Part shown: in pieces, positions 32,280 to 60,677 of the stretch | Numbering within the stretch: position 1 is the stretch's first letter | Layout of the letters: each line of letters starts with the position of its first letter | Origin: a virus | Taxonomy: Duplodnaviria; Caudoviricetes | Direction: 5' to 3' (one strand) | IMG/VR virus record: IMGVR_UViG_3300036985_004505 | Span: 785-64,784 of that record | Length of the DNA: 64,000 nt | Position numbers and translations under genes: made by a program | Notes under the pieces: generated by a model | What the model was told of the DNA's origin: nothing | Databases searched by the model: none | What the model saw: the letters and a program-made list of their open reading frames with translations, nothing else

Positions 32280-33107
32280 ATGGCAAAAGCAACAAGAGAG
32301 GCTGGTATGATGGCTTGTACTGGCGTGCAAGGGGTGGGTAAAACCTATCAAAATATGCACATTATTAAGGAGTACGTTAAAGATAAAGCTAAAACGCAAG
32401 TAAGGGGGCGTAAATGCTTAATTTTTGATACAAATGGTGAATACACCGCAGAGCAATTTGCGAGAAACGATATTCCAAACTTTACAATTAAAACTATTGC
32501 CGTTGGCGATATTGAAAATTGGTGCAAAACAGACGTGGCTGAGTGCCGTAGAGTTGATGCTAAAAACTTGGGTATTAGAGAAAAAAAGGATTGTGTGGAG
32601 TACATCTTAAAGGTCTACAAAAATGGTATGCTTGTTTTAGAGGATATTAACACCTACATTTTATCCGTAACTTTTATGGAGGAAATTGTAGGGGGTTTGG
32701 TAAATTTAAGGCACAGAGCGGTAGACGTTTTAATTAGCTACCAAAGTTTACGCCCAGTAGAGCCTCGTATTTGGCAAAATAGCCGTTGGGTGCGTATGCA
32801 CTATCAAGCCGATAATGTAATGGATATTAAGGGCAAAGTAACAAATGTGACGTTATTTAAAATTGCTCAGTTATTGGTAAACAAAAAGTATTTTGATGGT
32901 GATAAGCGGTTTTTTGTTTATATACACAACTTTGCAAACAAAATACAAGGAAACTTTAAGTTAGAAGAATTTGAAGAGGCTTGTAGGCAATACCTTAGTT
33001 CTAATAAAAAATACATTAGGGAATTTAAGGAAATAAATAATTGCGATATAGACGAGGCAACCGATGGTTTAGTAGAACAATATGTACATCAATATTATCA
33101 AGAATAA
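32280..33107 (+). CDS. FtsK/HerA-superfamily (A32/P9-like) genome-packaging ATPase
   Basis: GVQGVGKT Walker A, IFDTNGEY, LVLED Walker B, and RH...ISYQ arginine-finger/Gln motif. 275 aa with no terminase nuclease domain. Confidence 0.75.
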   Translation: MAKATREAGMMACTGVQGVGKTYQNMHIIKEYVKDKAKTQVRGRKCLIFDTNGEYTAEQFARNDIPNFTIKTIAVGDIENWCKTDVAECRRVDAKNLGIREKKDCVEYILKVYKNGMLVLEDINTYILSVTFMEEIVGGLVNLRHRAVDVLISYQSLRPVEPRIWQNSRWVRMHYQADNVMDIKGKVTNVTLFKIAQLLVNKKYFDGDKRFFVYIHNFANKIQGNFKLEEFEEACRQYLSSNKKYIREFKEINNCDIDEATDGLVEQYVHQYYQE

Positions 33108-36000: not shown

Positions 36001-36126
36001 ATGTTTTCATCTGAAAGTTTAAAAAAAGCTGGTATGACGCTTGTAATCGTAATGGTTGCTTTAGCAGTTCATCAAAAGTTTGTTGCTCCTATGCTTGTAA
36101 AAAAAGCTACGACTCCAACTAAATAA
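36001..36126 (+). CDS. small membrane protein (41 aa, absent from the ORF track)
   Basis: MFSSESLKKAGMTLVIVMVALAVHQKFVAPMLVKKATTPTK*, the first gene after the promoter. Confidence 0.7.
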   Translation: MFSSESLKKAGMTLVIVMVALAVHQKFVAPMLVKKATTPTK

Positions 36127-36282
36127 GAGTACGCAAGAATCGGGTTTTCTTCTTTCGTGCTTTTTTTTGCTATTGCCGTATATGGTAAGTGTGCATAGAA
36201 AACAAGGAAATAAAGTTATACATAACTGATGCCCAAAAAAAAGACAATTAAATAAATTATTAACAACCTTAATTCATAAAAA

Positions 36283-37050
36283 ATGAACTCAAAAGAAAAA
36301 GAATTGCTTAACGCAATTAACGGCACTGAGCGTATGTCAGGATTTGACTCTTACGCAGACGGTGATGATTCGTTCTTTGACGATAGCGACTTTGATGGCG
36401 ACTATGCGTTCGATGGCGACCAAATGTCTTACGCAGACGATATGTCTTACGCAGGAGGCAGTAGAGCACAAGCGGTTTCTGACCCTTATGTTATTCAATA
36501 CGACAATACGGCATTAGTTCCAGTAACGGCTATCCTTTTTGGATACAACGATTACTTTAATCAGCCGAATTTCGGTAACCCAGTATTAACAATTATTACC
36601 AACTTACAAACTGGTACTATCGCTGGTTATGGTCGTATGATTGCACAATCAAATAACAAGTTTTTTAAACTTGGTAAATGGCGTTTCCAATGTTCAACTC
36701 CAGCTCAGTTACAAATTACATTAAACATCAATCACGTTGATGCCAATGGTAAAACGTACACTTCGCCTTTGAACTTGTCAATTATGCGTGATGCTTATCA
36801 GCAACAACCTGATATTATCGATGTAACTAAACCAGTTACTATTGATGGTAACACGTTTATCACATTTACATTGTTAGCTGGTTCGGTATTTACAATTTCA
36901 ATGTTCCCAGTATCTGTTATTTCAGGTAAGGCTAAGTTGAATGGTGGTGCATCGTTAAATTCTGCAAGAGCACCTCGCTTGAGCGGTAAAAATGTTGCCC
37001 CAGTAATTATCCAAACTACGCAAGACGTAAAGGGTATCTCTGGACGCTAA
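36283..37050 (+). CDS. candidate major capsid protein (single jelly-roll-like)
   Basis: Acidic N-terminal extension plus a beta-strand-rich domain of about 150 aa. Codon usage looks like that of a highly expressed gene. Has its own terminator and a paralog at 42018. Confidence 0.55.
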   Translation: MNSKEKELLNAINGTERMSGFDSYADGDDSFFDDSDFDGDYAFDGDQMSYADDMSYAGGSRAQAVSDPYVIQYDNTALVPVTAILFGYNDYFNQPNFGNPVLTIITNLQTGTIAGYGRMIAQSNNKFFKLGKWRFQCSTPAQLQITLNINHVDANGKTYTSPLNLSIMRDAYQQQPDIIDVTKPVTIDGNTFITFTLLAGSVFTISMFPVSVISGKAKLNGGASLNSARAPRLSGKNVAPVIIQTTQDVKGISGR

Positions 37051-37070
37051 TTAGTTTTCAAGACTACTAT

Positions 37071-37108
37071 AAAAGAGGTGTGTGTATATTGCACACACCT
37101 TTTTTTTT
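37071..37108 (+). terminator. intrinsic terminator after the capsid candidate
   Basis: AGGTGTGTG-loop-CACACACCT followed by a T-run. Confidence 0.85.
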
Positions 37109-37128
37109 AACCTTTAAAAAACTAACAA

Positions 37129-37641
37129 GTGGCACGAAACAAAAACAAAACATATAAAACCCTATTATCCGTATTAGCTAATGGCAGTACAGAACAAGCA
37201 AGGGATTTATTAACAAGACATTCGGGCGGTGATGCCCAAGACGTAAAAGACCTTGAAATTAAACTTGCAAGGGTTTACGCCACATCATCAAATAAAAAAG
37301 ATATTGAGCGTGAGTTTGCTCAAATACACCCACACAAAGATTTTATTTTAAAATACGTTACCGCAAAAGAGGAAATTAAACCCCTTGAGGCAATACACGA
37401 CCAAGTGGTAAAGCCAATAGAAAATAGCGGTACTAAAAAAATGGTTATGGTACACGATGGTTATGCAAATGCAGATGGTTGTGAACAAACTTGCGGTTGC
37501 CCTAAATGTATGGGTTATTCAAATGCAAGTGGCGAACAACCGCAAAGCGTAGATAAAGGCAACCAAAACATAATGGTACTTGGAATAGTAAGCGTAGTAG
37601 CAATTTTAGGAATGGTACTTTACATAAATAAAAATAAATAG
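37129..37641 (+). CDS. C-terminally anchored virion membrane protein
   Basis: C-terminal TM, motifs YANADG and YSNASG. Confidence 0.7.
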   Translation: MARNKNKTYKTLLSVLANGSTEQARDLLTRHSGGDAQDVKDLEIKLARVYATSSNKKDIEREFAQIHPHKDFILKYVTAKEEIKPLEAIHDQVVKPIENSGTKKMVMVHDGYANADGCEQTCGCPKCMGYSNASGEQPQSVDKGNQNIMVLGIVSVVAILGMVLYINKNK

Positions 37642-37643
37642 AT

Positions 37644-38186
37644 ATGGGGATTGAAATTAAAATGGGCGAACCAATTGATGTAAGGCAAGAAGATAATACA
37701 ACGCTTGGTGAAGAGGTAAAAGTTATTGCCAATGCTAATGTATTAAAAGCAAATAAAGAGCATAAGAACTTTACAGAAACCGAAGAAGTTATCCCAGTAG
37801 GTACTACTTTATATGGTAGGACTATTATGGTTGATGGTTTACGCAGAGGGCAACCTTTTAAATATAGGTTGTTTAGTACAAACGATAAAAAAATTATACA
37901 CTTAAATAAAATAGAACCAATGAGAACAACAGAAGTATCCTTAGGGGCAGATGCCAAACAATCGCCGACAGTAGTAGATATGGCAAGACCAAAATTAAAC
38001 TTAACAAAGTGGACTATTGGCGGTGCATTAGCTGGTGCTGGTGCTGGATATTATTATTCAGCTAAAATGAAAAATATGGACAAAAAGAAAGTTATGATTT
38101 ACTCTATCGTGGGTTTAGTAGCTGGCTTTTATATTGGCAAGGCGATTGAAAAACGCAGACCAGTTAAAATTACACCAAGCAAATAA
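37644..38186 (+). CDS. membrane protein (SH3-like N-domain plus two Gly-rich TMs)
   Basis: IGGALAGAGAG and IVGLVAG helices, same architecture as 40091-40561. Confidence 0.7.
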   Translation: MGIEIKMGEPIDVRQEDNTTLGEEVKVIANANVLKANKEHKNFTETEEVIPVGTTLYGRTIMVDGLRRGQPFKYRLFSTNDKKIIHLNKIEPMRTTEVSLGADAKQSPTVVDMARPKLNLTKWTIGGALAGAGAGYYYSAKMKNMDKKKVMIYSIVGLVAGFYIGKAIEKRRPVKITPSK

Positions 38187-38204
38187 TTAAAAAAATAAAC
38201 AACT

Positions 38205-39431
38205 ATGGAACCAACAATAGTAACATTGTCGCCTTCATCTTCACCAATTAGCGTATCTTACGAAGAGGCTTTTGGCGAATATTCTGAATTAAGAGGTCGT
38301 GGTCGTGAACGCAGAAGAAAAAGACGCCAAGAAAGGCGTATGAAACGTATTCGTGATAGACAAGAAAGAAAACGAGCAAGGCAAGAAATGAGAGCCGAGC
38401 AACAAGAATCTCGTCAATTAAGAAAAGATAAACGCAAAAGCCGTAAAGTTGCTCGTAAAGCGATGGGCGAAGATGAGGAGTCTGAGGGGCAAGAGGGCTC
38501 AGGAGAAGATAGCGGAAGTGGTAGCAATGATGGTGGCGGTAGCGGAGCACAGAGTGATGATGGTGGTGGAGCACCAACGCCAACTGATGATGGCGGTGGA
38601 AATAATGGCGGTTACACTGGTGACGGTCCTGCAGAAGGGGAGTATCAAACAACCCAAGATGGCGATATGCAATCAGGTGATGAAGAGGCGGTAGACCAAG
38701 AGCAAGGTGAATCTGACGAAGAAAGCGGTTTTACTGGAGAGTTAGGCTTTGATGGTGTTATTGCAATGAGCCCTGAAGATGCCCAATGGGATGAGTACTT
38801 TAGTTCAGCTGAGGGTAAAAAAGCTATTAACCCCTTAGTTAAAAAACTTGCTTTACTTATTGAAAAAGAAAAACACTTTATAAGTGGTTTAAATAAAAAA
38901 CTTGAGAAGTTTAGCCGTTCTAAAATGAAAGGTTCGGGTAGAGCGGTTGCTATGTTAAGAAAAAGGTTAGCCCACCATACCTCAAGGTTAAAAAGGATGG
39001 AAATGCAACTTGCAAGATACTCACGTTTCGATGGTGATTATAGCGAGGCTCGTGGCGGTAGAAGAGGTGTTGCTCGTAAAAAAGCTGAAGTTAGACGTGC
39101 TAAAAAAGAGGCTCGTAAATTGCGTAAACAAGCTATCCGTAGCCGTAAACGTGGCACAGATGTTGATTCTGAGTTACAACCTGAATTTAGCGAACAAAGA
39201 ATCGAAGTGGGTGCAGAAGAAAGCAACTTTAGTGGCACTGGCTTAATTGGTTTAGATGAGCAATATGATATTGACGCACCTGAAACACGCAAGTTTGATT
39301 TAAAATTTTCTAATGTAGAGGGCGATGAGGCTAAAAAGAAAAAACGCAAAAAAATAATTATCGGTGTTTCTATTGGCATAGCGGTTGGCGTTTTAGCTAT
39401 CGTGTTAATTAAAAAATTCGGAAAAAAATAA
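38205..39431 (+). CDS. tail-anchored protein with alternating Arg/Lys-rich and acidic blocks (possible DNA-condensing core protein)
   Basis: RGRGRERRRKRRQERR block, acidic Gly-rich linker, C-terminal TM. Confidence 0.7.
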   Translation: MEPTIVTLSPSSSPISVSYEEAFGEYSELRGRGRERRRKRRQERRMKRIRDRQERKRARQEMRAEQQESRQLRKDKRKSRKVARKAMGEDEESEGQEGSGEDSGSGSNDGGGSGAQSDDGGGAPTPTDDGGGNNGGYTGDGPAEGEYQTTQDGDMQSGDEEAVDQEQGESDEESGFTGELGFDGVIAMSPEDAQWDEYFSSAEGKKAINPLVKKLALLIEKEKHFISGLNKKLEKFSRSKMKGSGRAVAMLRKRLAHHTSRLKRMEMQLARYSRFDGDYSEARGGRRGVARKKAEVRRAKKEARKLRKQAIRSRKRGTDVDSELQPEFSEQRIEVGAEESNFSGTGLIGLDEQYDIDAPETRKFDLKFSNVEGDEAKKKKRKKIIIGVSIGIAVGVLAIVLIKKFGKK

Positions 39432-39432
39432 A

Positions 39433-40089
39433 ATGGATAATAACTTCCACACTGAACTATCAAAGTATGTAAAAGCTAAAGATAACGAAAATGCCACTCG
39501 TGTAATTTTAAACGAGTTGGCAACTTCGCTTATTAAAGATAAAGAAAACTTCGTTGAGGTTTTGCGTAGTGCTGGGGTTAGCGTTTCTAATAATGACAAC
39601 GATGCTGATTTAATTGATAAGTTTGTAAAAAATGCACCAACTAACAAAGGGTTAATATTAGGGGCGTCATTACTTATTAACCACCGCAACCAATCAATTA
39701 ATTTTGATGGGGAAAGTGAAATAAGTGATGCTGGGGTTAAGGCAACCTACAAAGAACTTGACGAATATTTTAATTGTTGTGGCGAGGAGCATTCAAACGT
39801 AGCAGCCGCAATCGCTGGAATATTAAAGGGGGGTGTTGATTTAACTAATAAACTTGTTGAGGGTAAACAAAAAAAACAATTTGGTGTTAGTGACGCTTTA
39901 GCTAAACAACAAGATGCTCGTAAACAAATGATGCAAAATGTTATTGCCTCAAAACAAAAAGAAACTGACGAAAAGAATGCGAATGCAAGAAAGCAAAAAA
40001 AAATACTAATTATTGCTGGGGCAAGTGTTGTAGGTTTAGTTTTAATTATAGGGTTAGTAATGGTACTTAAAACAAATAAAGGAAAATAA
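39433..40089 (+). CDS. C-terminally anchored virion membrane protein
   Basis: C-terminal TM, INFDG motif. Confidence 0.7.
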   Translation: MDNNFHTELSKYVKAKDNENATRVILNELATSLIKDKENFVEVLRSAGVSVSNNDNDADLIDKFVKNAPTNKGLILGASLLINHRNQSINFDGESEISDAGVKATYKELDEYFNCCGEEHSNVAAAIAGILKGGVDLTNKLVEGKQKKQFGVSDALAKQQDARKQMMQNVIASKQKETDEKNANARKQKKILIIAGASVVGLVLIIGLVMVLKTNKGK

Positions 40090-40090
40090 A

Positions 40091-40561
40091 ATGGATTTTG
40101 TAGCAACAACAGATTTTGCAACGCCTTATGTAATTGCCACTGGGCAACCGCATAAACCAACGCAAATCTGTAAAAAACAATTTAAAAAGGGTGATATTAT
40201 AACTGGTGAGGTTAAGACTGTTAAAGGCAAACCGAGTTTTGTTTTACATAAAGGGGTGATGGTTATTCCATTTAGTTGCGTTAAACAAGTTGTTGTAAAA
40301 GACATCGTTGTAAGTAATTTAGATGGCACTTCTGATGCGGTAGCAAAAACAAACCCAAAAGTAGAAATGAAAGTTATTAAAACGGCTGACCAAAAAAATA
40401 GAGATTATTTCGGTGGCGTGTTGATTGGTGGTGCTTTGGGTTTTGGTGCGGTTATTTTAGCAGAAAAACAAGAGTGGTTAGCACCTGATAAAAAAAATAA
40501 AATGTATGGTATTGTTGTTGGTGCTATTATAGGCATATACTACATATATAAAAAAAAATAA
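40091..40561 (+). CDS. membrane protein (SH3-like N-domain plus two TMs)
   Basis: FKKGDII and SNLDG motifs, two Gly-rich TMs. Confidence 0.7.
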   Translation: MDFVATTDFATPYVIATGQPHKPTQICKKQFKKGDIITGEVKTVKGKPSFVLHKGVMVIPFSCVKQVVVKDIVVSNLDGTSDAVAKTNPKVEMKVIKTADQKNRDYFGGVLIGGALGFGAVILAEKQEWLAPDKKNKMYGIVVGAIIGIYYIYKKK

Positions 40562-40577
40562 TTTAAAATAAAGCATT

Positions 40578-41216
40578 ATGATAGTTAAAACAATAAACCC
40601 AGTAACAATTAACCGAAAAAGAATTAGTAAGCCAAGCGAATATTTAAGTGCTAATGGCGAAGATGAATTTTATGGTTTTGATGCAAACGGCAAACCTCAA
40701 ACTAAAGATGAAACAAAACAATTTCAAAATTGGTTAGATAGCAAATACCCAACGTGGTTAAATGGCGGTAAATTAAATGGAGGTACTGGTTATGGCACTT
40801 TTGGACCATCTACAACTAAAGCGTGGGGTACTTATGGCTCTGAGTTTGCAAAAACTTTAAACACTGGTACGCCAAGTGCAACACCAACGGCTGAACCCAC
40901 AAAAGATGAGGCTATTGCAAAAGCTAAATTAGGTCAAATTTGGGACAAAAACAAAGGCTGGATAACAAGCGATAAATCAAAAGAAGTTTTAAAAGTTTTA
41001 TTGGCTGGTGGTAGTGTAATGGATGCCATAAATAGTTTATTAGGCGGTGGTTCTGGTGGCGGAACAACTAATGATACAACAACAACAACAACAACGACAA
41101 CAGAAACTACAAAAGATGGTTTAAGCAAAAACGCTAAAATTGGTATTGCGGTAGGTGTCGTAGCGTTATTTGGTATAATCATTTATGCAGTAACTCGCCC
41201 AAAAACAAATAACTAA
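40578..41216 (+). CDS. tail-anchored protein with a peptidoglycan-binding-like domain
   Basis: FQNWLD...GTFGPSTTKAW, a Thr linker, and a GLSKNAKIGIAVG anchor. Confidence 0.65.
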   Translation: MIVKTINPVTINRKRISKPSEYLSANGEDEFYGFDANGKPQTKDETKQFQNWLDSKYPTWLNGGKLNGGTGYGTFGPSTTKAWGTYGSEFAKTLNTGTPSATPTAEPTKDEAIAKAKLGQIWDKNKGWITSDKSKEVLKVLLAGGSVMDAINSLLGGGSGGGTTNDTTTTTTTTTETTKDGLSKNAKIGIAVGVVALFGIIIYAVTRPKTNN

Positions 41217-42013
41217 TGGGATTCCCTATGCAAAAAGCGTACGAAAGCAACAACCGAAAAATGAGTTTGCACATAACTATTGTGTGCAAAGGAACTAAAA
41301 ACTTTCGTGTTTGGGCAGAAGAATTAGGCAAGAAAGATAGTAAATATGCTGATAGGGTAATTAATGTTACTAATAGCCGTACAATTCATTTTAATTTCCC
41401 AGTTAGCCCAAAAATGCTTTTTATTGGGTGCTTAAACGTGCAAAACATTAACGATAAAGATTTTGAGGTAACTATAAAAGAGGAGCCTTTAAAAACTTAC
41501 AATATTGTTATGGATAACGACACAAAAGATTTTGTTCAAATGGCAATTAATGTTAGTCAGACTATTGGCTTTGCACCGCCTCCACAAAACGGAATATTAT
41601 ACCAAACGCCTGACGCAAAGTTTAACATTAAAAACGTGCCAATGATAACCGATAAAATGAGCGGTCAAGTAATTGGTACACCAGCAAGAATTGGTCACAG
41701 TACTGGTCTTATAGAAGTGGCTTATGCAAGGTTTAAACAATATACAATACCTATGCGTTTGGCTATCCTTTTACACGAATATAGCCACAAATATAGAAAC
41801 CCAAAAATTGGATTGAAAATTAGCAATGAATTTGGAGCTGACATAAATGGTTTGTATATTTACCTCGGCATAGGTTTCTCAAAAGTTGATGCAATTTGTG
41901 TGTTTGCGGAAGTGTTTTTAAAAGCACAAACAGATGGCAATATGCAACGTATGAGGAAAATACAAGATTATATACAAAGGTTTGAAAATCAAGAGTACGC
42001 ACAAATAATGTAA
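41216..42013 (+). CDS. zincin-like metalloprotease
   Basis: ILLHEYSH (HExxH) followed by NEFGAD. Confidence 0.7.
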   Translation: MGFPMQKAYESNNRKMSLHITIVCKGTKNFRVWAEELGKKDSKYADRVINVTNSRTIHFNFPVSPKMLFIGCLNVQNINDKDFEVTIKEEPLKTYNIVMDNDTKDFVQMAINVSQTIGFAPPPQNGILYQTPDAKFNIKNVPMITDKMSGQVIGTPARIGHSTGLIEVAYARFKQYTIPMRLAILLHEYSHKYRNPKIGLKISNEFGADINGLYIYLGIGFSKVDAICVFAEVFLKAQTDGNMQRMRKIQDYIQRFENQEYAQIM

Positions 42014-42017
42014 AAAA

Positions 42018-42956
42018 ATGCAAGAACCAAACAATATATTTACAAGCGAGTCAGATTACCAACAATCAATAAATGGTAGTTATGACGATTTGTACGCAGA
42101 AGAGGAGTTTGGAAATGCCGATGGTGAAACGTATTTTGACGAAAACGATTTAAGTGATATTGATTTTAGCGATTTTAAAGGCAAGGATTTTAAAAGCAAA
42201 TTAAGAAAAGTTCATAAAACTTTAGCTAAAAAGAAAGTTGCTAAACCGCTTGATAAAGATTTCGTTGTAACAAAACGTGCAACATTATACGGAAAAAAAG
42301 GCGGTAGTGCTGAGGGTTTAAACACTAAGCGTATTATCGTGCCAAACACCCAAAAAGTAATTGTAGAGGGCGTAGATAAGTTTATTTTAGGTGACGATAA
42401 GTGTGGTATTAAAAATATTGGTTACTACAAGTGTAAGAAATTAAAAGAATTAATACTTACCATAAACAACAATTCTGCGGTAGATTTTAATTTAAACTTT
42501 TTTGACCCGAGTATGCCGTTAGATTATTTGTTTTCAACAAGCGGTAATTTAAACAACAAAATTCAGGTCGCTGGGGGCGTAGTTAGTTATTCAGATGTAT
42601 TGTTTAATATCCTTGCCAACCCTATGCACATTATTAATGCGAAATTTACGTTTGCAGGACCGACATACCAACAACAAATTAATCAGCCGTTAATTTTCAC
42701 AAACAAATCTGCGGTTGGTGAACAAAAAATAGAGCCTTTGCAATTACAATTACAAATTGATAATATGCAAGTTGCCAACGATATTGTGTTTTTTGAACTT
42801 GATAAACTTGGCAGACCATTTATCCCAAATGGAATGGATATCATTAAATACAGAGTTTTGGCTGGAAATACAATTACATTTGCTTTTTATTATAGGCAAA
42901 AAGACATTAGAAAATTATTTTACGAAGAGGCACGAAACGATAAAAAATTATTATAG
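42018..42956 (+). CDS. second capsid-protein candidate, paralog of 36283-37050
   Basis: The C-terminal domain aligns by eye with 36283-37050 (Q...L....G....PL....D..Q..DI....[DN]G...I...LAG). Acidic N-extension with FGNADG. Confidence 0.55.
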   Translation: MQEPNNIFTSESDYQQSINGSYDDLYAEEEFGNADGETYFDENDLSDIDFSDFKGKDFKSKLRKVHKTLAKKKVAKPLDKDFVVTKRATLYGKKGGSAEGLNTKRIIVPNTQKVIVEGVDKFILGDDKCGIKNIGYYKCKKLKELILTINNNSAVDFNLNFFDPSMPLDYLFSTSGNLNNKIQVAGGVVSYSDVLFNILANPMHIINAKFTFAGPTYQQQINQPLIFTNKSAVGEQKIEPLQLQLQIDNMQVANDIVFFELDKLGRPFIPNGMDIIKYRVLAGNTITFAFYYRQKDIRKLFYEEARNDKKLL

Positions 42957-42959
42957 TAA

Positions 42960-44228
42960 ATGAGTTTATTTGAACAAAAATATCCTAATAACATTAGAAC
43001 CATAATTGGTTTAATAAATATCCCATTCCAAGACGATTCAGTTTTAGAGTGCGATACCACGTTAAGCCCAGTTGCAATACAATTAATAGGCATACCAGCA
43101 AACGCTTGGAGTACTCAATATAAGTTATATATCGTTGACAAAAGCAATAACGCATCTGTAAATAACATTGTAATTAGTGCGCCTATTGGTTATAAAATTA
43201 ATGGAGCATTAAGCGTAACGATTAACGCAAATGGTGGCTCATATTTAATTCGTGTAGCAAGTAACACAAACTATGTAGGTCAATATAGCGCTGGAGGTGG
43301 GGGTATAACTACCCTTACAGTTACAGATACGTCAACAATAGATTTAACTTTAACGCCTATTGCTGGTGGCTATAATTTACAAGCTAATTTAATATTAGCC
43401 GATTATCTGTTTGCGGTTAAAAATTTAACAGACCCAAATGTTTTATATTGTAGAACTACAAAATCTATTCCGCTAACTTTACAAAAATATGAAAACCCTT
43501 TTCAATCAATAACAGACAACTCTATATTTACGGCATACGATACTAAATCAGAGTTTGGAGGTTTAGTTGGCGCATTTGATTTATTAACTGGTACATTTAC
43601 AGCACCTACTACTGGCTTATATTCAATACAAACACAGATAGGATATGCTTTAAATATAAATCCGTATATAAATACTTTTGATAACGGAACAGTTAATTCA
43701 AATGGTCAATATTGGATGCTAAATTATGTTGAATTATATAGAGTTATAGATTTTTTACGAGACCCAGCTACATTGCTTTCTCCTCCGGCAATCGGAGATA
43801 GATATATTGTAGGAACACCAGCTACGGGAGTTTTTTTAGGACAAGAAAATAATATAGCCGAGTGGAATGGAGTCGCTTGGATTTTCAGTCCTCCAATATC
43901 AAATAACATTACTCAAAATTTTATTTTTGTAATTACTGGAAGTCAATCATTAACTTGGAACGGCACGTCTTGGGTTGCATTTATAGAAAACTTATTAAGT
44001 ATTGGTAGTTTTTCAATAGCACAATATTTAGTTGGTAGCGGTCTTCTGTCTGTTGGTATTAAAACAATATCAATGAGTTCAAGCCAATTATATATAACAA
44101 CCTTAGCAATATTTAGATTAAATGCTTTTAGTCCAGTTAAAGTTGTTTACACTAATAACACAGATTTACCTATGTATGGTAACGTAAATAGTAATGTAAT
44201 TTTTAGAGTACAAAAATTATCAAATTAA
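42960..44228 (+). CDS. spike/receptor-binding-like protein with a DUF2793-like insert
   Basis: Beta-rich, with GTFTAPTTGLY and PPAIGDRYIVGTPATG.F.GQENNIAEWNG.AW. N-domain shared with 45434 and 50939. Confidence 0.55.
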   Translation: MSLFEQKYPNNIRTIIGLINIPFQDDSVLECDTTLSPVAIQLIGIPANAWSTQYKLYIVDKSNNASVNNIVISAPIGYKINGALSVTINANGGSYLIRVASNTNYVGQYSAGGGGITTLTVTDTSTIDLTLTPIAGGYNLQANLILADYLFAVKNLTDPNVLYCRTTKSIPLTLQKYENPFQSITDNSIFTAYDTKSEFGGLVGAFDLLTGTFTAPTTGLYSIQTQIGYALNINPYINTFDNGTVNSNGQYWMLNYVELYRVIDFLRDPATLLSPPAIGDRYIVGTPATGVFLGQENNIAEWNGVAWIFSPPISNNITQNFIFVITGSQSLTWNGTSWVAFIENLLSIGSFSIAQYLVGSGLLSVGIKTISMSSSQLYITTLAIFRLNAFSPVKVVYTNNTDLPMYGNVNSNVIFRVQKLSN

Positions 44229-44233: not shown

Positions 44234-44428
44234 ATGGAAAATAACAAAAAAATAGCATTAGGATTTGTGGTTGCTGGAACTGTAATGTATTTTGCAACAA
44301 AAGAAGAACCTAAAAAAACGCCTCAACAACTTTCGGCTGGAGACGATATGAGTTTAAGAACAATAGCAAAAGTTTTGTTTATCGGTGGCGCAATATCTTT
44401 AGTATATCAAACATTTATAAAAAAATAA
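44234..44428 (+). CDS. small membrane protein
   Basis: Two TM segments. Confidence 0.65.
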   Translation: MENNKKIALGFVVAGTVMYFATKEEPKKTPQQLSAGDDMSLRTIAKVLFIGGAISLVYQTFIKK

Positions 44429-44432
44429 TAAA

Positions 44433-44873
44433 ATGGGAATATTAACTGGCAAAGCAGACGTTATAGCAACTATGCCTCCTTTCAATAGTAAAGCAGAAAA
44501 TTGGATTCAATGGCACAAAGATTTAAAAAGTAATTTTGGAAATAAAGTTGCTAACGGAATATGGCTAAAAGCGTGGCGATTAAGAGGAAATTCAGATTGT
44601 AATACGTCTGAACTAAGAACTTATATGAAAAAACAAGGCGTAACGATTGATGCAAGTGGATGGGATAAATTTACCGATGCAACCTCAAGCGGTTTATCTA
44701 CGTTGTTTCAAATGAGCGCTACATCAAGTTTAATTATAACTGGAACATTAGTAGGTTTAACAGTTTATATTATTTACAAAGTATTAAAAAACCCAGATAG
44801 TGCTAAAAATGTAGTTATGATGGCTACGCCACAAGGGAGAGTGGCATCAATGGTAGGAGGGCTAAAAAAATGA
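44433..44873 (+). CDS. membrane protein
   Basis: Trp-rich N-domain plus a TM helix. Confidence 0.7.
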   Translation: MGILTGKADVIATMPPFNSKAENWIQWHKDLKSNFGNKVANGIWLKAWRLRGNSDCNTSELRTYMKKQGVTIDASGWDKFTDATSSGLSTLFQMSATSSLIITGTLVGLTVYIIYKVLKNPDSAKNVVMMATPQGRVASMVGGLKK

Positions 44874-45418
44874 AACTAACTAAAGGACAAATAGGCGGAA
44901 TTGTTGCTGGAGTTGTAGCAATATCTTTAATTACATTCGTTGTAATTCGCAGAAACAAAAACAAAAAGTTAATCAAAGAAATTAACGATATTTTGGATTC
45001 CAAAGTGCCAGACCCTAACAAGTCTGGTTCGCAAGTTATTTTGACACAAGCGCAATTAGGCACTTTACCGAATGGTAATTTCCCTTTAAAAATAGGGGAT
45101 AAAAATAAAAAAGTGTACGATGTGCAAATGGCTTTAAACAGAAAGTTTGGTAGCGGAATTGATGCAGATGGAAAGTACGGAGAAAGCACTTTTCAATCAA
45201 TGTGTTCAAACGTCTGGAATAAAGGCTTTGGAAGTTCATATTATGGTTCGTGTTTTAATGTAAATTTAACCTCAGCACCTACAAGGAGAATGATTACACA
45301 AACGGATTGGGCTAATTTACAAAAGTCAGCAAACTTTGATGGTGTCGGTGGCACTTCTGTTAGTAGTGATTATATGAATAACGTAATGGGTGAGCCGATA
45401 GTCGGTTTAGATATTTAA
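44870..45418 (+). CDS. membrane-anchored protein with a peptidoglycan-binding-like domain
   Basis: N-terminal TM, LKIGDKNKKVYDVQMALN...IDADGKYGEST, and an ANFDG motif. Confidence 0.7.
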   Translation: MKLTKGQIGGIVAGVVAISLITFVVIRRNKNKKLIKEINDILDSKVPDPNKSGSQVILTQAQLGTLPNGNFPLKIGDKNKKVYDVQMALNRKFGSGIDADGKYGESTFQSMCSNVWNKGFGSSYYGSCFNVNLTSAPTRRMITQTDWANLQKSANFDGVGGTSVSSDYMNNVMGEPIVGLDI

Positions 45419-45433
45419 CAATTAAAAAAAACA

Positions 45434-45919
45434 ATGGCAACAGAAATAAACGCAGACAATCGTGGTGAGGTTTTACCAATAGCTGAAAAAACTATACAAA
45501 TAAATTTACAAGGTGCAATCCCCCCAATTAAGGGTGGTGGAATATACGAGTTGGTAGCTAACCAACCTGGAGCCATAAATACAGTCATAATTAGGGTTGA
45601 ATTATCGGTAATAGATAAGGGCAACCCAGTGTATATAGTATTGCCAGCTACTACTAATTATTCAGATGGTGTAAGCCCAATTATTTATGTTATAGATAAT
45701 AATTTTACGGCAACCTCTTCGCAAATAATAGTAGGAACAAGAGCGGTTTTAAAAGAAGAGAATAACGATTACATAAATGGTGGCGATAGGGTTACTATGA
45801 ATGTTGATGGTGGAAATATTTGTGTACAATGTATAACAAGAGGCGTTTATATTGCAAGTGGCACTATTGATAATGGTGGTTTAGTTGCAGGAGTAGACGT
45901 GCCATTAGAGGCAAAATAA
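45434..45919 (+). CDS. beta-rich structural protein (vertex/spike base-like)
   Basis: IVLP...IYVIDNNFTATSSQI.V...D.ING resembles the N-domains of 42960 and 50939. Confidence 0.6.
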   Translation: MATEINADNRGEVLPIAEKTIQINLQGAIPPIKGGGIYELVANQPGAINTVIIRVELSVIDKGNPVYIVLPATTNYSDGVSPIIYVIDNNFTATSSQIIVGTRAVLKEENNDYINGGDRVTMNVDGGNICVQCITRGVYIASGTIDNGGLVAGVDVPLEAK

Positions 45920-45955
45920 AAACAAAAATAAATTAACAATTAAAAATAAAAAAAA

Positions 45956-46177
45956 ATGAAAGAGCAAATCGCAAAAATTAAAACAAACCCAGTAGGTACT
46001 GGTGTTGGTGCAGTAGGTGGTTATTTAATCGCTACAAAAGTATTAAAAACTGAAAAATTGTGGATGACTATTGCCGTTGCGGTAGTTGGAGGCGTTGTAG
46101 GTGCAATGGTACAAGCTAATATGAAAGCTAAAAAAGGTATGCCAACCGCATCAACAGTTACCGCTCCAGTAAAGTAA
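45956..46177 (+). CDS. small membrane protein
   Basis: Two Gly-rich TMs. Confidence 0.75.
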   Translation: MKEQIAKIKTNPVGTGVGAVGGYLIATKVLKTEKLWMTIAVAVVGGVVGAMVQANMKAKKGMPTASTVTAPVK

Positions 46178-46202
46178 TTTAAACATTAAAAAAAAGAACC
46201 AA

Positions 46203-46718
46203 ATGAAAGTAGAACCAAAAAAATCACGTACAGGACTTATCGTAGTTATAAGTAGCTTATTAGTGATTGGTGGGGTTGTCGGTTATATTTTTTGGAAAAA
46301 GGCAAAAGATAAAAAAGACGAACAAGCCAAAAAAGACGCAGAGGCAAAAAGAATAGCTGAAGAACAAGCAAAAGGGGGCGGTGGCTCAACTGATAGCGGT
46401 GGAAACACTTCGGGTGGTTCAACTGGAGGTGGTGGAAACACTGGCGGTAGCACTACCACATTAAGTAATTTTGAATTACTTCAAAAAAACTTAAACGCAA
46501 AAGCGGATAAAAACGGACTTGTTTTTGTTAAGTTTAATGGCAACAAAAATTCAGCTACATTTTTTAACAATAATCGTTTTTCAATAAATGTTGTTGGGCA
46601 AGGTGGCTATTTAAAGAAAGGCTCTTATTCAAATGGTGGTTTAACTTTAACTGTTGATGGTGCTACGCCTATATCAAGTAGTAGTGTTTGGGGAAATTTA
46701 TTAACCGCTTTAAAATAA
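46203..46718 (+). CDS. N-anchored membrane protein with a Gly/Ser linker
   Basis: TM helix, linker, then a beta domain. Confidence 0.7.
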   Translation: MKVEPKKSRTGLIVVISSLLVIGGVVGYIFWKKAKDKKDEQAKKDAEAKRIAEEQAKGGGGSTDSGGNTSGGSTGGGGNTGGSTTTLSNFELLQKNLNAKADKNGLVFVKFNGNKNSATFFNNNRFSINVVGQGGYLKKGSYSNGGLTLTVDGATPISSSSVWGNLLTALK

Positions 46719-46724
46719 TATTTA

Positions 46725-47453
46725 ATGGCGGTAGATAAAAATAAATTCAAAACTGTTACCCAATTTGTTATAGATAAGTTAGAGGGTGGTTACTATAACC
46801 CATCGTGGCATAGTGTAGGCGACTCTCGTTATTCTGCAAGTGGGGAAACTATGTTTGGAATTGACCGCAAGGCTGGAGGCAAGATAAATGACACAACGGC
46901 TGGTAAAGAGTTTTGGGGAATTATAGATAAAGCCAAAACCCCTCAAACGTGGAAGTGGAACTATAAAGGTGGGGCATTAGCACCACAATTAAAAGACCTT
47001 GTTGTTGATATTATGTACCCAGTTTACGAACGTAACGCTAAAAATTATTTAACGGCTCAAGCAAAGGCTATTGTAGATAGTGATAGCCGTTTGTTGTTCC
47101 ATTTTATTTATGGCTCTTGGAATGGTGCTGGTTGGTTTAAAAAATTTGCTACCGATATGAATAAAGCGGTAGCAAGTGGCATAACTGACCCCGATAAATT
47201 ATCGCAAGTCGCCCTTGATTCAAGAACTAAAGAAGGGTTAAAAGAGGGTAGTTCGCCAAATTCATTGATTGCACAAGGCGGTAGAAAAATAGCAACTTTG
47301 TTTGGAACATTAAAAGACGCCACAATATCTACTGCAAAAGCAACAGAAGAAGTGGTAAAAAAAAACCCTTTACCAATCGCAATAATGACAAGCCTACTAT
47401 TAGTTAGTGGGTACTTTTTATATACTTACGGAATTAAAAATAAAATAAAATAA
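46725..47453 (+). CDS. membrane-anchored lysozyme-like (GH108-like) virion protein
   Basis: LEGGY...D....GETMFGI catalytic motif and a C-terminal TM. Confidence 0.65.
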   Translation: MAVDKNKFKTVTQFVIDKLEGGYYNPSWHSVGDSRYSASGETMFGIDRKAGGKINDTTAGKEFWGIIDKAKTPQTWKWNYKGGALAPQLKDLVVDIMYPVYERNAKNYLTAQAKAIVDSDSRLLFHFIYGSWNGAGWFKKFATDMNKAVASGITDPDKLSQVALDSRTKEGLKEGSSPNSLIAQGGRKIATLFGTLKDATISTAKATEEVVKKNPLPIAIMTSLLLVSGYFLYTYGIKNKIK

Positions 47454-47454
47454 A

Positions 47455-47985
47455 ATGGAATCAGAATTAGGTAATGAGTTTATGAATGCCGATGGTATTA
47501 TAAACTACGAAGTAGCCAACGGACTGCAAAATATTGGCAACCAATATAACGAAAATTATATGTCGGCAAATGGCAATGATGAGTACTATAATGCCGATAA
47601 TGATAATGATGATTTTTACAACGCAGACGGCGATGACGATTATTACAATGCTGGTGGGTTGTTTAAAAACTTTCGTAAAAACCAAAAAATACGCCAAAAA
47701 AGACGTTCTGATAGGGCTAAATCAAAAGAAGAGGCACGGAAAACGAAGGCTCAAGCAAAATTAGTCCAAGCAGAATCACAAAAAGAATCTGCAAAACAGA
47801 TGGGTAAAGGTGCTGAGGCTGATTTAGAGTTGGCAAAATCACTTGGCAAAAACGCTGAACAACCAACTGAAAAAGGGTTAAGTAAGGGTATGAAAATTGG
47901 TATTGCCGTTGGGGTTGTACTTATTTTAGGTGTTGTCGGGTTTATTGTTTATAAAAAAATGGGTGCTAAAAAAGTAGGAAAATGA
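47455..47985 (+). CDS. tail-anchored protein: acidic NADG-repeat N-terminus plus basic block
   Basis: FMNADG, YMSANG, YYNADN, FYNADG, YYNAGG, and a KGLSKGMKIGIAVG anchor. Confidence 0.75.
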   Translation: MESELGNEFMNADGIINYEVANGLQNIGNQYNENYMSANGNDEYYNADNDNDDFYNADGDDDYYNAGGLFKNFRKNQKIRQKRRSDRAKSKEEARKTKAQAKLVQAESQKESAKQMGKGAEADLELAKSLGKNAEQPTEKGLSKGMKIGIAVGVVLILGVVGFIVYKKMGAKKVGK

Positions 47986-57498: not shown

Positions 57499-57708
57499 AT
57501 GAAAAAAATCATTAAAAACTATTATGCTCCAACGCCAAAAAAGTGGCGTAAAATAGGGGATATGTTATTGGCTTTAAGTTTGTATGCACAAACGCAAGAG
57601 GCTTTTACAGTACATACTAAATTAATGACTGGAGTTGCCATTGTTGGCTTAGTAGGTAAATTTTTGACTAACTTTTTTACAGAAGAACCCCAAAATGATA
57701 AAGCCTAA
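57499..57708 (+). CDS. putative holin
   Basis: PTPKKWRKIGD N-terminus and two hydrophobic segments, directly before the endolysin. Confidence 0.6.
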   Translation: MKKIIKNYYAPTPKKWRKIGDMLLALSLYAQTQEAFTVHTKLMTGVAIVGLVGKFLTNFFTEEPQNDKA

Positions 57709-58300
57709 TTGGTTATATGATAATAGGTACTTTATTGGCGGTGGATTAACCCTTGCCGTAATTGGTGTAACCTTGTACTTGAACCGCAAAAAAGTAGAAA
57801 AATTAAGTAGTGATGTTATGGAGTATGCAAAAAATAAAGTTTGGGATTTAACCTCTGAAAATAAAATAAATACATTGCACCCAAAAATAAGGGATAAGGC
57901 AAGGGAATTTATTAATCGTGTAGAAAAAGAATTGGGTATTAAGTTGCGTGTAACAAGTGGGTTTAGAACTTATGCTGAGCAAGATAAACTATATGCACAA
58001 GGCAGAACCGCTCCAGGGAGTATTGTTACTAAAGCAAAGGGCGGTCAATCAAACCACAATTTCGGTACTGCTTTTGATGTAGTGCCTATTGTAAATGGAA
58101 GTGCCGATTGGAAAACAACCGCAGATACGTGGAATAAAATTGCAAAAGTGGGCAAGGAAATTGGTTTTAGTTGGGGTGGTGATTGGCAAACATTTACCGA
58201 TAAGCCACATTTTGAAATGCAATTTGGTAACAGTTTAGCACAATTACGGAAAAAATACGAAAGTGGGCAAAAAGATGGTGAATATGTAAAATTAGCATAA
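57695..58300 (+). CDS. M15 (L-Ala-D-Glu type) peptidase endolysin with an N-terminal TM
   Basis: SGFRTYAEQDKLYAQGRT, SNHNFGTAFD, WGGDW, DKPHFE. Confidence 0.9.
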   Translation: MIKPNWLYDNRYFIGGGLTLAVIGVTLYLNRKKVEKLSSDVMEYAKNKVWDLTSENKINTLHPKIRDKAREFINRVEKELGIKLRVTSGFRTYAEQDKLYAQGRTAPGSIVTKAKGGQSNHNFGTAFDVVPIVNGSADWKTTADTWNKIAKVGKEIGFSWGGDWQTFTDKPHFEMQFGNSLAQLRKKYESGQKDGEYVKLA

Positions 58301-58308
58301 AAATAAAA

Positions 58309-60400: not shown

Positions 60401-60405
60401 ATTTA

Positions 60406-60645: not shown

Positions 60646-60677
60646 CTTAGTTGTTTTTAAGCAAAGTTAATAAAAAG

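What the first reader, a model, noticed from the sequence alone, without database searches (positions are those of the whole stretch)
36283..42956. Two paralogous single-jelly-roll-like capsid candidates, each with an acidic N-terminal extension
The C-terminal 150 aa or so of 36283-37050 and 42018-42956 align by eye (PLNLSIMRDAYQQQPDII...IDGNTFITFTLLAG versus PLQLQLQIDNMQVANDIV...PNGMDIIKYRVLAG). The first has high-expression-like codons and its own terminator, which suggests it is the major protein. Established: a pair of single-jelly-roll MCPs is the design of the Thermus P23-77 and haloarchaeal SH1 viruses. Inference: this virus uses a similar design, or a major/minor pair, in a mesophilic Bacteroidota host.
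Basis: partly seen in the sequence, partly recalled or inferred. Interest (0 to 1): 0.8.

Follow-up and report, generated by a model that had tools for sequence, protein, structure and literature searches.

The report
Two jelly-roll virion proteins, large phage
Two distantly related jelly-roll proteins sit in the particle-building gene block of a large, apparently tail-less and membrane-containing phage of freshwater Bacteroidota, and they are the best candidates for its shell proteins, in a virus group nobody seems to have described.

Summary
The proteins from 36283-37050 (P0001, 255 aa) and 42018-42956 (P0002, 312 aa) are true but distant paralogs. Profile comparisons give E 5e-7 to 8e-6. 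A P0001 profile ranks all 15 P0002 orthologs above 427 unrelated ORFs. A superfamily profile matches P0002 residues 142-310 at E 1e-9. Both have acidic N-terminal extensions.

Both genes lie in a conserved late block. It holds a small HerA/TrwB-like ATPase, an HExxH protein, a spike, about 15 membrane proteins and a lysis cassette. No terminase, portal or HK97 capsid match was found in the related records searched (each family in 2 to 9 of 10), one of them 146 kb.

P0001 is the most conserved structural gene. It stands as its own unit, with a terminator kept in 14 of 15 loci. I therefore read P0001 as the major shell protein. P0002 is packed between the HExxH gene and the spike gene, so I read it as a vertex or second shell protein.

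A P23-77-like co-major pair is possible but unsupported. The family is large (759 cluster representatives) and includes forms with 2-4 fused domains. No capsid role has been shown experimentally.

The parts
36283..37050 (+). P0001, 255 aa. It has an N-terminal helix and an acidic aromatic extension (aa 1-65), a jelly-roll core (aa 66-213) and a C-terminal tail (aa 214-255) containing the invariant APRLSGKNVAPVII. Proposed major shell protein.
   Evidence: AF2 model with high pLDDT over the core. Jelly-roll matches. 686 homologs. 759 representatives of 50%-identity clusters. Present in 15 of 15 related loci at 63% mean identity. Tail invariant in 12 of 12 sequences.
37076..37109 (+). Intrinsic-terminator-like hairpin followed by T9, directly after P0001.
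   Evidence: Equivalent hairpin with T-run in 14 of 15 loci, with different stem sequences.
36001..36126 (+). Conserved micro-ORF (41 aa, one membrane segment, motif ..LAVHQKFVAP..) in the gap upstream of P0001. About 155 nt of non-coding leader follow it.
   Evidence: A homologous 33-41 aa ORF lies upstream of the P0001 ortholog in 16 of 16 loci. Sequence.
42018..42956 (+). P0002, 312 aa. Acidic aa 1-55, basic aa 56-105, jelly-roll domain about aa 142-310. Proposed vertex (penton-base-like) or second shell protein.
   Evidence: Homology to the P0001 superfamily. Low-confidence AF2 model with the same element order and jelly-roll matches. Present in 14 of 15 loci at 47% mean identity.
41216..42013 (+). 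Conserved 265-aa protein with a beta-rich N-terminal half and an invariant HExxH...E...D motif (H187 E188 H191 E205 D209). Putative zinc metallopeptidase. Its gene ends 5 nt before P0002.
   Evidence: Alignment A5. Present in 14 of 15 loci at 58% identity. Homologs in distant loci at E 1e-68 to 1e-76. No Pfam, PHROG, NCBIfam or PDB match.
42960..44228 (+). Spike or fibre candidate with a DUF2793 domain. Starts 4 nt after P0002. Its length varies from 354 to 894 aa among relatives.
   Evidence: Pfam DUF2793 at E 5e-8. PHROG tail-fibre families. Length range.
32280..33107 (+). 275-aa P-loop ATPase (Walker A GVQGVGKT; Walker B LVLED). Candidate genome-packaging ATPase. The most conserved gene of the block.
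   Evidence: Pfam DUF87 (HerA) and TrwB in 12 of 15 orthologs, best E 3.6e-7. 67% mean identity in 15 of 15 loci. Alignment A4.
37129..41216 (+). Run of six small proteins with C-terminal membrane anchors. They include a very basic 408-aa protein (38205-39431) and a paralogous pair (37644-38186 and 40091-40561). Candidate internal-membrane proteins.
   Evidence: ORFs. Hydrophobic segments. 37644 against 40091 by hhalign, E 1.4e-5. Conserved in 8-14 of 15 loci.
44234..49247 (+). Further small membrane proteins. They include a membrane-anchored protein at 46725-47453 whose N-terminus recalls GH108 muramidases (recalled resemblance, no database hit) and proteins rich in [FY]xNADG motifs.
   Evidence: No family hit for 46725.
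57695..59358 (+). Lysis cassette that closes the late block: a membrane-anchored endolysin and two small overlapping ORFs placed like spanin genes (58677-59015 has an N-terminal membrane segment).
   Evidence: PHROG endolysin at E 3e-43. ORFs. The spanin reading is inference from position and sequence.

Best explanation
P0001 and P0002 are ancient paralogs of a large, unannotated family of single jelly-roll proteins. This family is a hallmark of a diverse group of AT-rich dsDNA phages found in freshwater and sediment, probably infecting Bacteroidota.

In these phages the particle is built by a non-HK97 module, consisting of:
- a small FtsK/HerA-type ATPase;
- jelly-roll proteins;
- about 15 small membrane proteins, which suggest an internal membrane;
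- spikes or fibres;
- a lysis cassette.

P0001 is the major shell protein. It is universal, it is the most conserved structural gene, and it is made from its own promoter-to-terminator unit. Its disordered acidic N-terminal extension and its invariant C-terminal arm would mediate assembly contacts with neighbouring subunits, with the basic membrane proteins, or with a scaffold. They might be trimmed by the HExxH protein.

P0002 is co-transcribed with the HExxH protein and the spike. It is a lower-copy shell component, most likely the vertex base that carries the spike.

Shown: paralogy, jelly-roll fold, gene context, conservation and terminator. Inferred: the capsid role, the major/vertex split, the membrane and the processing.
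For: Paralogy.

Fold:
- The P0001 core is predicted with high confidence.
- 33 of 50 entries are virus particle structures for the weaker P0002 model.
- BFVD hits to picorna-like capsids reach E 6e-6.

Context:
- The conserved block ATPase, P0001, membrane proteins, HExxH, P0002, spike is present in 14-15 of 15 loci.
- 16 of 39 late ORFs have hydrophobic segments, against 1 of 43 early ORFs. One of the 16 is a P0001 beta strand.
- The late block is bounded by replication genes and by an endolysin.

No match to tailed-phage families in related records:
- Terminase_6N in 0 of 9 records.
- TerL_ATPase and Phage_portal in 0 of 2.
- Phage_capsid in 0 of 4.
- None among all 25 Pfam families hit by 57 ORFs of the 146-kb relative.

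Major status of P0001:
- Highest identity among structural genes.
- Flanked by the largest gaps in the block.
- Terminator present in 14 of 15 loci, with differing stems.

P0002 next to the spike: gaps of 5 and 4 nt. The order matches PRD1, where penton P31 precedes spike P5.

Family behaviour fits shell proteins:
- 2-5 paralogs per locus.
- Fused proteins with 2, 3 and 4 domains.
- In two distant loci the jelly-roll gene abuts the ATPase.
Against: - There is no sequence or profile link to any known capsid protein.
- The P0002 model is poor (pLDDT 55.6).
- All related records are fragments with erratic completeness estimates of 32-89%. A tailed-phage module could therefore lie outside them.
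- The PHROG list for the 146-kb relative was cut at 25 of 69 families.
- 56188-57495 hits 'tail protein' PHROGs at E 4e-18. 42960 hits tail-fibre PHROGs. 49293 has a faint 'head-tail adaptor' hit at E 0.006 with no passing stretch.
- The ATPase resembles PRD1 P9 and the P23-77 ATPase only at Walker A (probability 0.7-1.4%, against 55% between those two). It does not match Pox_A32.
- Codon bias does not mark P0001 as highly expressed.
- 17 of 150 family representatives carry membrane segments. That would also fit a membrane-surface role.
Confidence: 0.55

Rival explanations
1. P0001 and P0002 are two co-major capsid proteins that form mixed pseudo-hexameric capsomers, as VP16/VP17 do in P23-77 and VP4/VP7 in SH1 and HCIV-1.
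For: Two universal jelly-roll paralogs of unequal size, 255 and 312 aa. Membrane-rich late block with a small ATPase. The family includes fused two-domain proteins, so two such domains can work side by side.
Against: The genes are 5 kb apart and in different expression contexts. P0001 has its own terminator, while P0002 sits between the HExxH and spike genes. In P23-77 the ATPase, VP16 and VP17 genes are clustered. Conservation is unequal, 63% against 47%. The extra length of P0002 is a disordered N-terminal extension, not an inserted tower. There is no profile similarity to VP16/VP17.
Confidence: 0.2
2. The jelly-roll proteins are not lattice formers. They could be membrane-surface or spike-associated proteins. 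Alternatively, P0001 could be a nucleoplasmin-like acidic oligomeric chaperone or scaffold for the very basic proteins of the block. In either case the true capsid protein is an unrecognised fold or is encoded outside the available contigs, possibly an HK97 module of a jumbo tailed phage.
Against: The late block runs from the ATPase to the lysis cassette and contains no ORF that could plausibly be a portal, terminase or HK97 capsid protein. The five ORFs over 400 aa are two low-complexity membrane proteins, two DUF2793-type fibres and a beta-helix repeat protein. No tailed-phage family matched in up to 9 related records. The 'tail' PHROG hits cover a 70-aa DUF2793-like repeat that is also found in the spike. 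P0001 has the expression layout and conservation expected of a major structural protein.
Confidence: 0.2
3. The resemblance between the two proteins is chance or compositional, and they are unrelated.
For: The pairwise BLASTP signal is weak (E 8e-4, 60 residues).
Against: Two independent profile-profile tests, reciprocal HMM searches and a clean ranking against 427 unrelated ORFs.
Confidence: 0.02

Closest known systems
Halopanivirales (P23-77, IN93, SH1, HCIV-1, SNJ1): membrane-containing tail-less dsDNA viruses with two single jelly-roll major capsid proteins
   Same: Two single jelly-roll paralogs of unequal size. A small P-loop ATPase in the same block. Many small membrane proteins. Spikes. 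No HK97-type genes found.
   Different: No sequence or profile similarity. The genes are not adjacent to each other or to the ATPase. The genome is at least 64.8 kb here and at least 146 kb in a relative, against 17,036 bp for P23-77. Abstracts listed give 16-19 kb and about 30 kbp for two families of the order. The putative host is mesophilic Bacteroidota. The expression layout is unequal. The ATPase is not detectably of the same clade.
PRD1-type vertex: penton protein P31 (single jelly roll, 126 aa) with spike P5
Double and triple jelly-roll virion proteins (FLiP and PBCV-1 capsid proteins, STIV A223)
   Different: The fused forms occur in other lineages, not in this window. They coexist with a separate P0001-like gene (locus L030). 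The window and its 84-kb relative lack the extra pair, so these forms are accessory. Their fold and role were not modelled.
Nucleoplasmin/nucleophosmin core (pentameric jelly roll with acidic tracts)
   Different: Fold-level likeness only. The tract is N-terminal here. The setting is a viral late block. The family forms tandem fusions and membrane-anchored variants.

Membership tests
Viral-type single jelly-roll fold | Eight-stranded beta sandwich of about 150 residues (two four-stranded sheets) | tested here: met
   P0001 has nine predicted strands between residues 69 and 213, with block pLDDT 74-96. The best matches are jelly rolls throughout. For P0002 the model is poor, but the domain is homologous over its whole length. 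Strand topology was not traced residue by residue.
Halopanivirales-type two-MCP design | Two single jelly-roll capsid genes adjacent to each other and close to the packaging ATPase gene | tested here: not met
   In the window the ATPase ends at 33107, P0001 starts at 36283 and P0002 starts at 42018. In P23-77 the ATPase is at 6740-7414, VP16 at 7983-8504 and VP17 at 8514-9389. In two distant relatives a jelly-roll gene does abut the ATPase.
Halopanivirales-type two-MCP design | Sequence or profile similarity to VP16/VP17-type proteins | tested here: not met
   hhalign of A6 and A2 against P23-77 VP16 and VP17 gives probability 0.2% or less. The PDB sequence search found nothing. Single-sequence targets make this an insensitive test.
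Halopanivirales-type two-MCP design | Structural similarity to the vertical single beta-barrel capsid proteins | tested here: inconclusive
Halopanivirales-type two-MCP design | The two proteins form heteromers in the capsomer | not testable with these tools
   This needs particle structure or biochemistry. See Tried and rejected for the one modelling attempt.
Halopanivirales-type two-MCP design | Internal lipid membrane | tested here: inconclusive
   16 of 39 late ORFs have hydrophobic segments, against 1 of 43 early ORFs. This is indirect. There are no lipid data.
PRD1-type penton base (for P0002) | Small single jelly-roll protein encoded next to the spike gene, forming pentamers at the vertices | tested here: inconclusive
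FtsK-HerA superfamily packaging ATPase (for 32280-33107) | P-loop ATPase with Walker A and B motifs and similarity to HerA, FtsK or TrwB | tested here: met
   DUF87 (HerA) and TrwB_AAD_bind match 12 of 15 orthologs, best E 3.6e-7, mostly below Pfam's cut-offs. The motifs are invariant.
PRD1 P9 / A32 clade of packaging ATPases | Similarity beyond the P-loop to P9, the P23-77 ATPase or Pox_A32 | tested here: not met
   hhalign probability is 0.7-1.4% and covers Walker A only. The control, P23-77 ATPase against P9, gives 55%. Pox_A32 matched 0 of 5 records. The PDB profile search found nothing.
Tailed phages (HK97-fold capsid, portal, terminase) | Large terminase, portal and HK97-fold capsid genes | tested here: not met
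   PF03237 in 0 of 9 records. PF03354 and PF04860 in 0 of 2. PF05065 in 0 of 4. 22 late ORFs scanned with PHROGs gave only fibre-domain, endolysin and faint hits. All records are fragments, and divergent genes could escape these profiles.
Double jelly-roll capsid viruses (Bamfordvirae) | [quoted passage not shown] | tested here: inconclusive
   Capsid_NCLDV matched 0 of 5 records. No similarity to PRD1 P3. No conserved soluble ORF of suitable size in the block. Bacterial double jelly-roll proteins often escape profiles, and no further folds could be run.

The most novel reading that the evidence does not exclude
These two proteins may mark a previously undescribed lineage of large bacterial viruses. 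Contigs reach 146 kb here, and cluster tables list contigs up to 235 kb. These viruses would build a tail-less, membrane-containing particle from single jelly-roll paralogs that share no detectable sequence similarity with Halopanivirales or with double jelly-roll viruses. Sister lineages show the same domain as adjacent gene pairs and as fused proteins with 2-4 domains. That would be a living series from single to multiple jelly-roll shell proteins, in mesophilic Bacteroidota.
Probability: 0.4. Interest if true: 0.9.

Novelty: new variant of a known kind. Interest (0 to 1): 0.75.

Why it matters
The jelly-roll-capsid phage records fetched here are small: P23-77 is 17 kb and PRD1 is 15 kb. Abstracts listed give 16-19 kb and about 30 kbp for two archaeal virus families.

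If the capsid reading is right, a widespread freshwater group uses jelly-roll shell proteins on genomes several times larger. P0001 has 686 homologs and the family has 759 cluster representatives. The genomes carry DNA-modification, nucleotide-metabolism and anti-defence genes.

That would widen the size range and host range of non-HK97 phages. It would give a new and very large jelly-roll family for tracing how single rolls became double rolls. It would also explain why such contigs are poorly annotated, or carry a giant-virus-type label as the record of L021 does.

The conserved acidic extension, the invariant C-terminal arm and the neighbouring HExxH protein are concrete handles for studying assembly.

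Tried and rejected
Searches that found nothing:
- Pfam, PHROG and NCBIfam scans of both proteins gave no hit.
- tblastn of P0001 and of the ATPase against 50,697 phage records gave no match.
- PDB sequence-profile searches with A1, A2, A4 and A5 gave nothing at E<0.01.
- ESM Atlas for P0002 gave a best score of 0.85, below the usable range, and holds no model. For P0308 it gave no usable hit.
- Foldseek against the PDB gave no hit at E<=1e-3.
- P23-77 VP16/VP17 and the SH1/HCIV-1 capsid proteins do not appear among the 50 entries shown. This does not exclude them.

Attempts without a usable answer:
- Complex prediction with the P0001 core and P0002 120-312 gave no verdict (score 0.01, mark 0.32). 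It is no evidence either way.
- The look-up of sequencing runs listed no RNA holder, so expression could not be read.
- Fused two-domain forms were sought in IMG/VR with P0308 and with alignment A7. Neither found a relative. The metagenome scan then found 42 loci.
- A check for wrap-around between the 84-kb and 146-kb relatives found only collinearity, so completeness is unresolved.
- CheckV completeness values (32-89%) were inconsistent and were not used for genome size.
- L060, L045 and L031 could not be searched as whole records.
- No further folds could be run after the two allowed. The HExxH protein, the ATPase, the fused forms and oligomers were therefore not modelled.

Readings considered and dropped:
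- A conjugative element, suggested by the TrwB-like ATPase, a lysozyme-like protein and DUF932. I dropped it because of the lysis cassette, the phage-type early genes and the absence of a large VirB4-type ATPase among the ORFs seen.
- 35071-35841 as a further paralog. The P0001-core HMM gives E 9.1.

Literature: three full-text searches listed no paper describing this group. Only listings and abstract starts were seen. No paper was read and no supplement was opened, so an existing description cannot be excluded.

Full report
THE OBSERVATION

The two ORFs are as described: 36283-37050 (P0001, 255 aa) and 42018-42956 (P0002, 312 aa).

The relationship becomes firm with profiles:
- Each protein has hundreds of unannotated homologs in metagenomes: 686 and 599 at E<=1e-3.
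- hhalign of alignments built from those homologs gives 84% probability, E 7.6e-6, over 71 columns.
- I built separate alignments from 15 related IMG/VR loci. In an all-against-all test of 14 conserved gene groups (91 pairs), P0001 against P0002 was the best pair not explained by membrane segments: 92.3%, E 5.4e-7, 100 columns.
- An HMM of the P0001 core was searched against 460 ORFs from the window's late region and the 15 loci. It ranked the 16 P0001 orthologs first, then two extra paralogs in one relative, then all 15 P0002 orthologs (E 4e-9 to 0.25). The first of 427 unrelated ORFs followed at E 0.51.
- The same HMM hit 110 of 120 P0002-family proteins at E<1e-3.
- The reverse search hit 126 of 150 P0001-superfamily representatives at E<=10, best 2.5e-7.
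- A superfamily HMM covers P0002 residues 142-310 at E 1.2e-9, and it hit 6 of 6 P0002 orthologs tested at E 2.6e-16 to 2.6e-6.

The two proteins are therefore homologous over the whole domain, not only the last 60 residues.

Both have acidic N-terminal extensions. P0001 residues 1-65 carry 16 D/E and 4 K/R. P0002 residues 1-55 carry 16 D/E and 1 K/R, followed by a basic stretch.

The terminator after P0001 is real as a pattern: a 9-pair stem followed by T9. The claim of expression-type codon use is not borne out. ENC is 46.2, inside the range of 32 genes, and only GC3 is on the high side.

FOLD

With a 48-sequence alignment, AlphaFold2 predicts P0001 residues 66-213 as a beta sandwich with two short helical inserts, at high confidence. 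Residues 13-64 and 215-241 are predicted disordered.
- Foldseek against the PDB gives no hit at E<=1e-3. Its weak list is picornavirus VP3, comovirus, satellite-virus coats, carbohydrate-binding modules and TNF-like proteins.
- BFVD gives picorna-like capsid hits down to E 6e-6, as well as C1q-like heads.
- The P0002 model is poor (pLDDT 55.6). It shows the same order of strands and helices, and 33 of its 50 best entries are virus particle structures.

The fold is thus a jelly roll of the viral, TNF or nucleoplasmin class. It has no close solved relative and no sequence link to the PDB.

WHERE THE GENES SIT

The window is nearly all of a 64,784-base IMG/VR virus record, transcribed almost entirely on one strand.

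The left 30 kb encodes:
- DnaB;
- a PD-(D/E)XK nuclease;
- RusA;
- two Tet/JBP dioxygenases;
- an AAA_5 ATPase;
- a polyvalent protein with an ADP-ribosyltransferase domain.

From 30.7 to 59.4 kb runs a late block:
- two conserved unknown genes;
- a 275-aa P-loop ATPase;
- P0001;
- six membrane-anchored proteins;
- an HExxH protein;
- P0002;
- a DUF2793 spike;
- more small membrane proteins;
- a 964-aa beta-helix-repeat protein;
- a second DUF2793-type fibre;
- an endolysin (PHROG E 3e-43), followed by two small overlapping ORFs placed like spanin genes.

Sixteen of 39 late ORFs have a hydrophobic segment, against 1 of 43 early ORFs. One of the sixteen is a P0001 beta strand.

The ATPase matches HerA (DUF87) and TrwB models in 12 of 15 orthologs (best E 3.6e-7). 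That places it in the FtsK-HerA superfamily. It resembles PRD1 P9 and the P23-77 ATPase only at Walker A, and it does not match Pox_A32.

IS IT A TAILED PHAGE IN DISGUISE?

Twenty-two late ORFs were scanned with PHROGs. Only fibre-domain, endolysin and faint hits appeared.

The five late ORFs over 400 aa are two low-complexity membrane proteins, two DUF2793-type fibres and the repeat protein. None looks like a portal, a terminase or an HK97-fold capsid protein.

Related records total ten, from 48 to 146 kb:
- Terminase_6N matched 0 of 9.
- TerL_ATPase and Phage_portal matched 0 of 2.
- Phage_capsid matched 0 of 4.
- Capsid_NCLDV matched 0 of 5.

The 146-kb relative has uniform GC and 241 ORFs in two divergent arms. 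I scanned its 57 ORFs of 200 aa or more that lie within single fetched stretches. All 25 Pfam families they hit at E<=1e-5 are replication, nucleotide-metabolism, methylase, transposase-type and similar functions. The PHROG list for these ORFs was cut at 25 of 69 families.

Against this reading:
- Every record is a fragment, with completeness estimates from 32 to 89%.
- 56188-57495 hits 'tail protein' PHROGs. The matched part is a 70-aa repeat of the DUF2793 type, which is also present in the spike.
- 49293 has a faint head-tail-adaptor hit (E 0.006).

I put the tail-less reading at about three in four.

WHICH PROTEIN DOES WHAT

Across 15 related loci the best-conserved genes of the block are:

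| Gene | Mean identity | Loci |
|---|---|---|
| ATPase | 67% | 15 of 15 |
| P0001 | 63% | 15 of 15 |
| HExxH protein | 58% | 14 of 15 |
| P0002 | 47% | 14 of 15 |

The spike varies from 354 to 894 aa.

P0001 is set apart from its neighbours. The gap upstream is at least 415 nt in all 16 loci. It holds a conserved 33-41 aa membrane micro-ORF (16 of 16), followed in the window by about 155 nt of leader. A GC-rich hairpin with a T-run lies about 50 nt after the stop in 14 of the 15 loci with downstream sequence. That is 12 of 13 distinct loci. The stem sequences differ, so the structure is kept while the sequence turns over. Elsewhere in the block, genes abut or overlap. This is the layout expected of the most abundantly made protein.

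The P0001 C-terminal arm contains 14 consecutive invariant residues (APRLSGKNVAPVII) in 12 of 12 diverse sequences. It is more conserved than the folded core, yet it is predicted disordered in the monomer. That suggests it binds partners in an assembly.

P0002 starts 5 nt after the HExxH gene and ends 4 nt before the spike gene. PRD1 has the same order, with penton P31 followed by spike P5.

I therefore favour P0001 as the major shell protein and P0002 as a vertex base or second, lower-copy shell protein. The HExxH protein has invariant H187, E188, H191, E205 and D209. It has no family match. It may process the charged extensions, but this is speculation.

THE FAMILY

A profile of the P0001 core found 759 representatives of 50%-identity clusters at E<=1e-3, and 340 at E<=1e-10.

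Among the best 150 representatives:
- 94 have an N-terminal extension of 30 residues or more, and 38 of those are strongly acidic;
- 17 have membrane segments;
- 12 carry the C-terminal arm motif.

Tandem and fused forms:
- Six of the 150 (P0268, P0308, P0311, P0328, P0376, P0382) contain two full copies of the domain when searched with the P0001-core HMM.
- With the superfamily HMM, P0328 shows a third copy, P0353 two copies, and a 655-aa protein in a metagenome locus four matches.
- Five of the fused proteins align end to end at 32-48% identity, so the architecture is real.

Forty-two metagenome loci recovered with these forms are distant members of the same virus group. They have P0001-like genes, HExxH homologs at E 1e-68 to 1e-76 and ATPase homologs, with GC of 0.27-0.47, on contigs up to 123 kb. 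They carry up to five jelly-roll ORFs per locus. In two loci the jelly-roll gene abuts the ATPase gene.

One locus (L030) has a fused two-domain gene upstream of its P0001-like gene. The 146-kb relative and L044 have two adjacent single-domain genes at the same position. The window and its 84-kb relative have neither, so these extras are accessory. P0001 and P0002 remain the universal members.

An exploratory tree (no support values read) places the P0001-type, P0002-type and fused-N-terminal-domain types in separate deep branches.

HOST AND HABITAT

Nine hits in species-representative genomes are all MAG contigs. Six are labelled Bacteroidota, including Saprospiraceae, Saprospira and Flavobacteriaceae. 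Source names include Chitinophagales and Flavobacterium.

Two lake-water runs from one study hold 63-65% of the sampled words of this stretch.

COMPARISON WITH KNOWN SYSTEMS

The element works most like the membrane-containing jelly-roll viruses. It is not a demonstrable member of Halopanivirales:
- gene adjacency is not met;
- profile similarity is not met;
- structural similarity is inconclusive;
- genome size is several times larger.

It is not a demonstrable double jelly-roll virus either, because no such capsid protein was found.

Three literature searches listed no description of such a group. I saw only listings and abstract starts.

VERDICT

The paralogy and the jelly-roll fold are established computationally. 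A shell role is the best-supported reading (about 0.75 in total: 0.55 for a major-plus-vertex pair and 0.2 for a co-major pair). It still lacks any direct evidence.

I rate the finding a new variant of a known kind, with interest 0.75.

Noticed in passing
window 40578-41216, 42018-42956, 47455-47985, 47982-49247 (also by eye in 37129-37641 and 36283-37050): A short acidic-aromatic motif, [FYW]x[NSDG]A[DN]G (for example FYNADG, YLSANG), occurs 9 times in 4 late ORFs. Shuffled proteins give 0.29 on average and 2 at most. Similar motifs sit in the N-terminal extensions of distant P0001-family members. It may be a shared assembly, targeting or cleavage signal.
   Followed up: partly
window 38205-39431 and 47982-49247: A second shared motif, [FY]SE[AL]RG followed by an arginine-rich run, occurs three times in two membrane-anchored late proteins.
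   Followed up: no
window 36001-36126: A 41-aa ORF with one membrane segment and the motif LAVHQKFVAP is conserved upstream of the P0001 gene in 16 of 16 loci. It is too short for the standard ORF list.
   Followed up: partly
window 37644-38186 and 40091-40561: These two membrane-anchored late proteins are paralogs beyond their anchors (hhalign E 1.4e-5 over 110 columns).
   Followed up: no
window 3614-4480 and 4735-5610: Two paralogous Tet/JBP-type 2OG-Fe(II) dioxygenases (Pfam E 6e-24 and 2e-23). They suggest hypermodified DNA bases in this phage.
   Followed up: no
window 18700-21174; L010-L011 (G003 116218-121701, 1827 aa); G001 36003-40607 (1534 aa): Polyvalent-protein-type giant ORFs, with ART-PolyVal and DUF5661 domains in the window copy. 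They are of a kind usually thought to be delivered with the DNA.
   Followed up: no
window 49293-49961 and 54758-55921: The first protein is an internal duplication of a repeat of about 85 aa. Both proteins end in the same C-terminal motif (...IGGL).
   Followed up: no
window 50939-53833: A 964-aa protein made largely of NNxIGNxF-type repeats. It looks like a long beta-helix fibre. It has no family match.
   Followed up: no
L005-L012 (G003, 146,216 bases): The large relative carries three TnpB/IS605 OrfB-type genes, NAPRTase, PRPP synthetase, thymidylate synthase and RNA ligase genes. About 66 kb of small ORFs lie on the opposite strand with no counterpart in the window.
   Followed up: partly
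L021: The record name of this relative (19,393 bases) carries a 'GVMAG' label, so contigs of this group may sit in collections under a giant-virus label. No NCLDV capsid or A32 match was found in five related records.
   Followed up: partly
window 59496-64000: The last 4.5 kb switch to the minus strand and have higher GC (0.35-0.40). 59496-60149 resembles a gene that lies next to DnaB in both relatives. Gene order at this end therefore differs between genomes.
   Followed up: no
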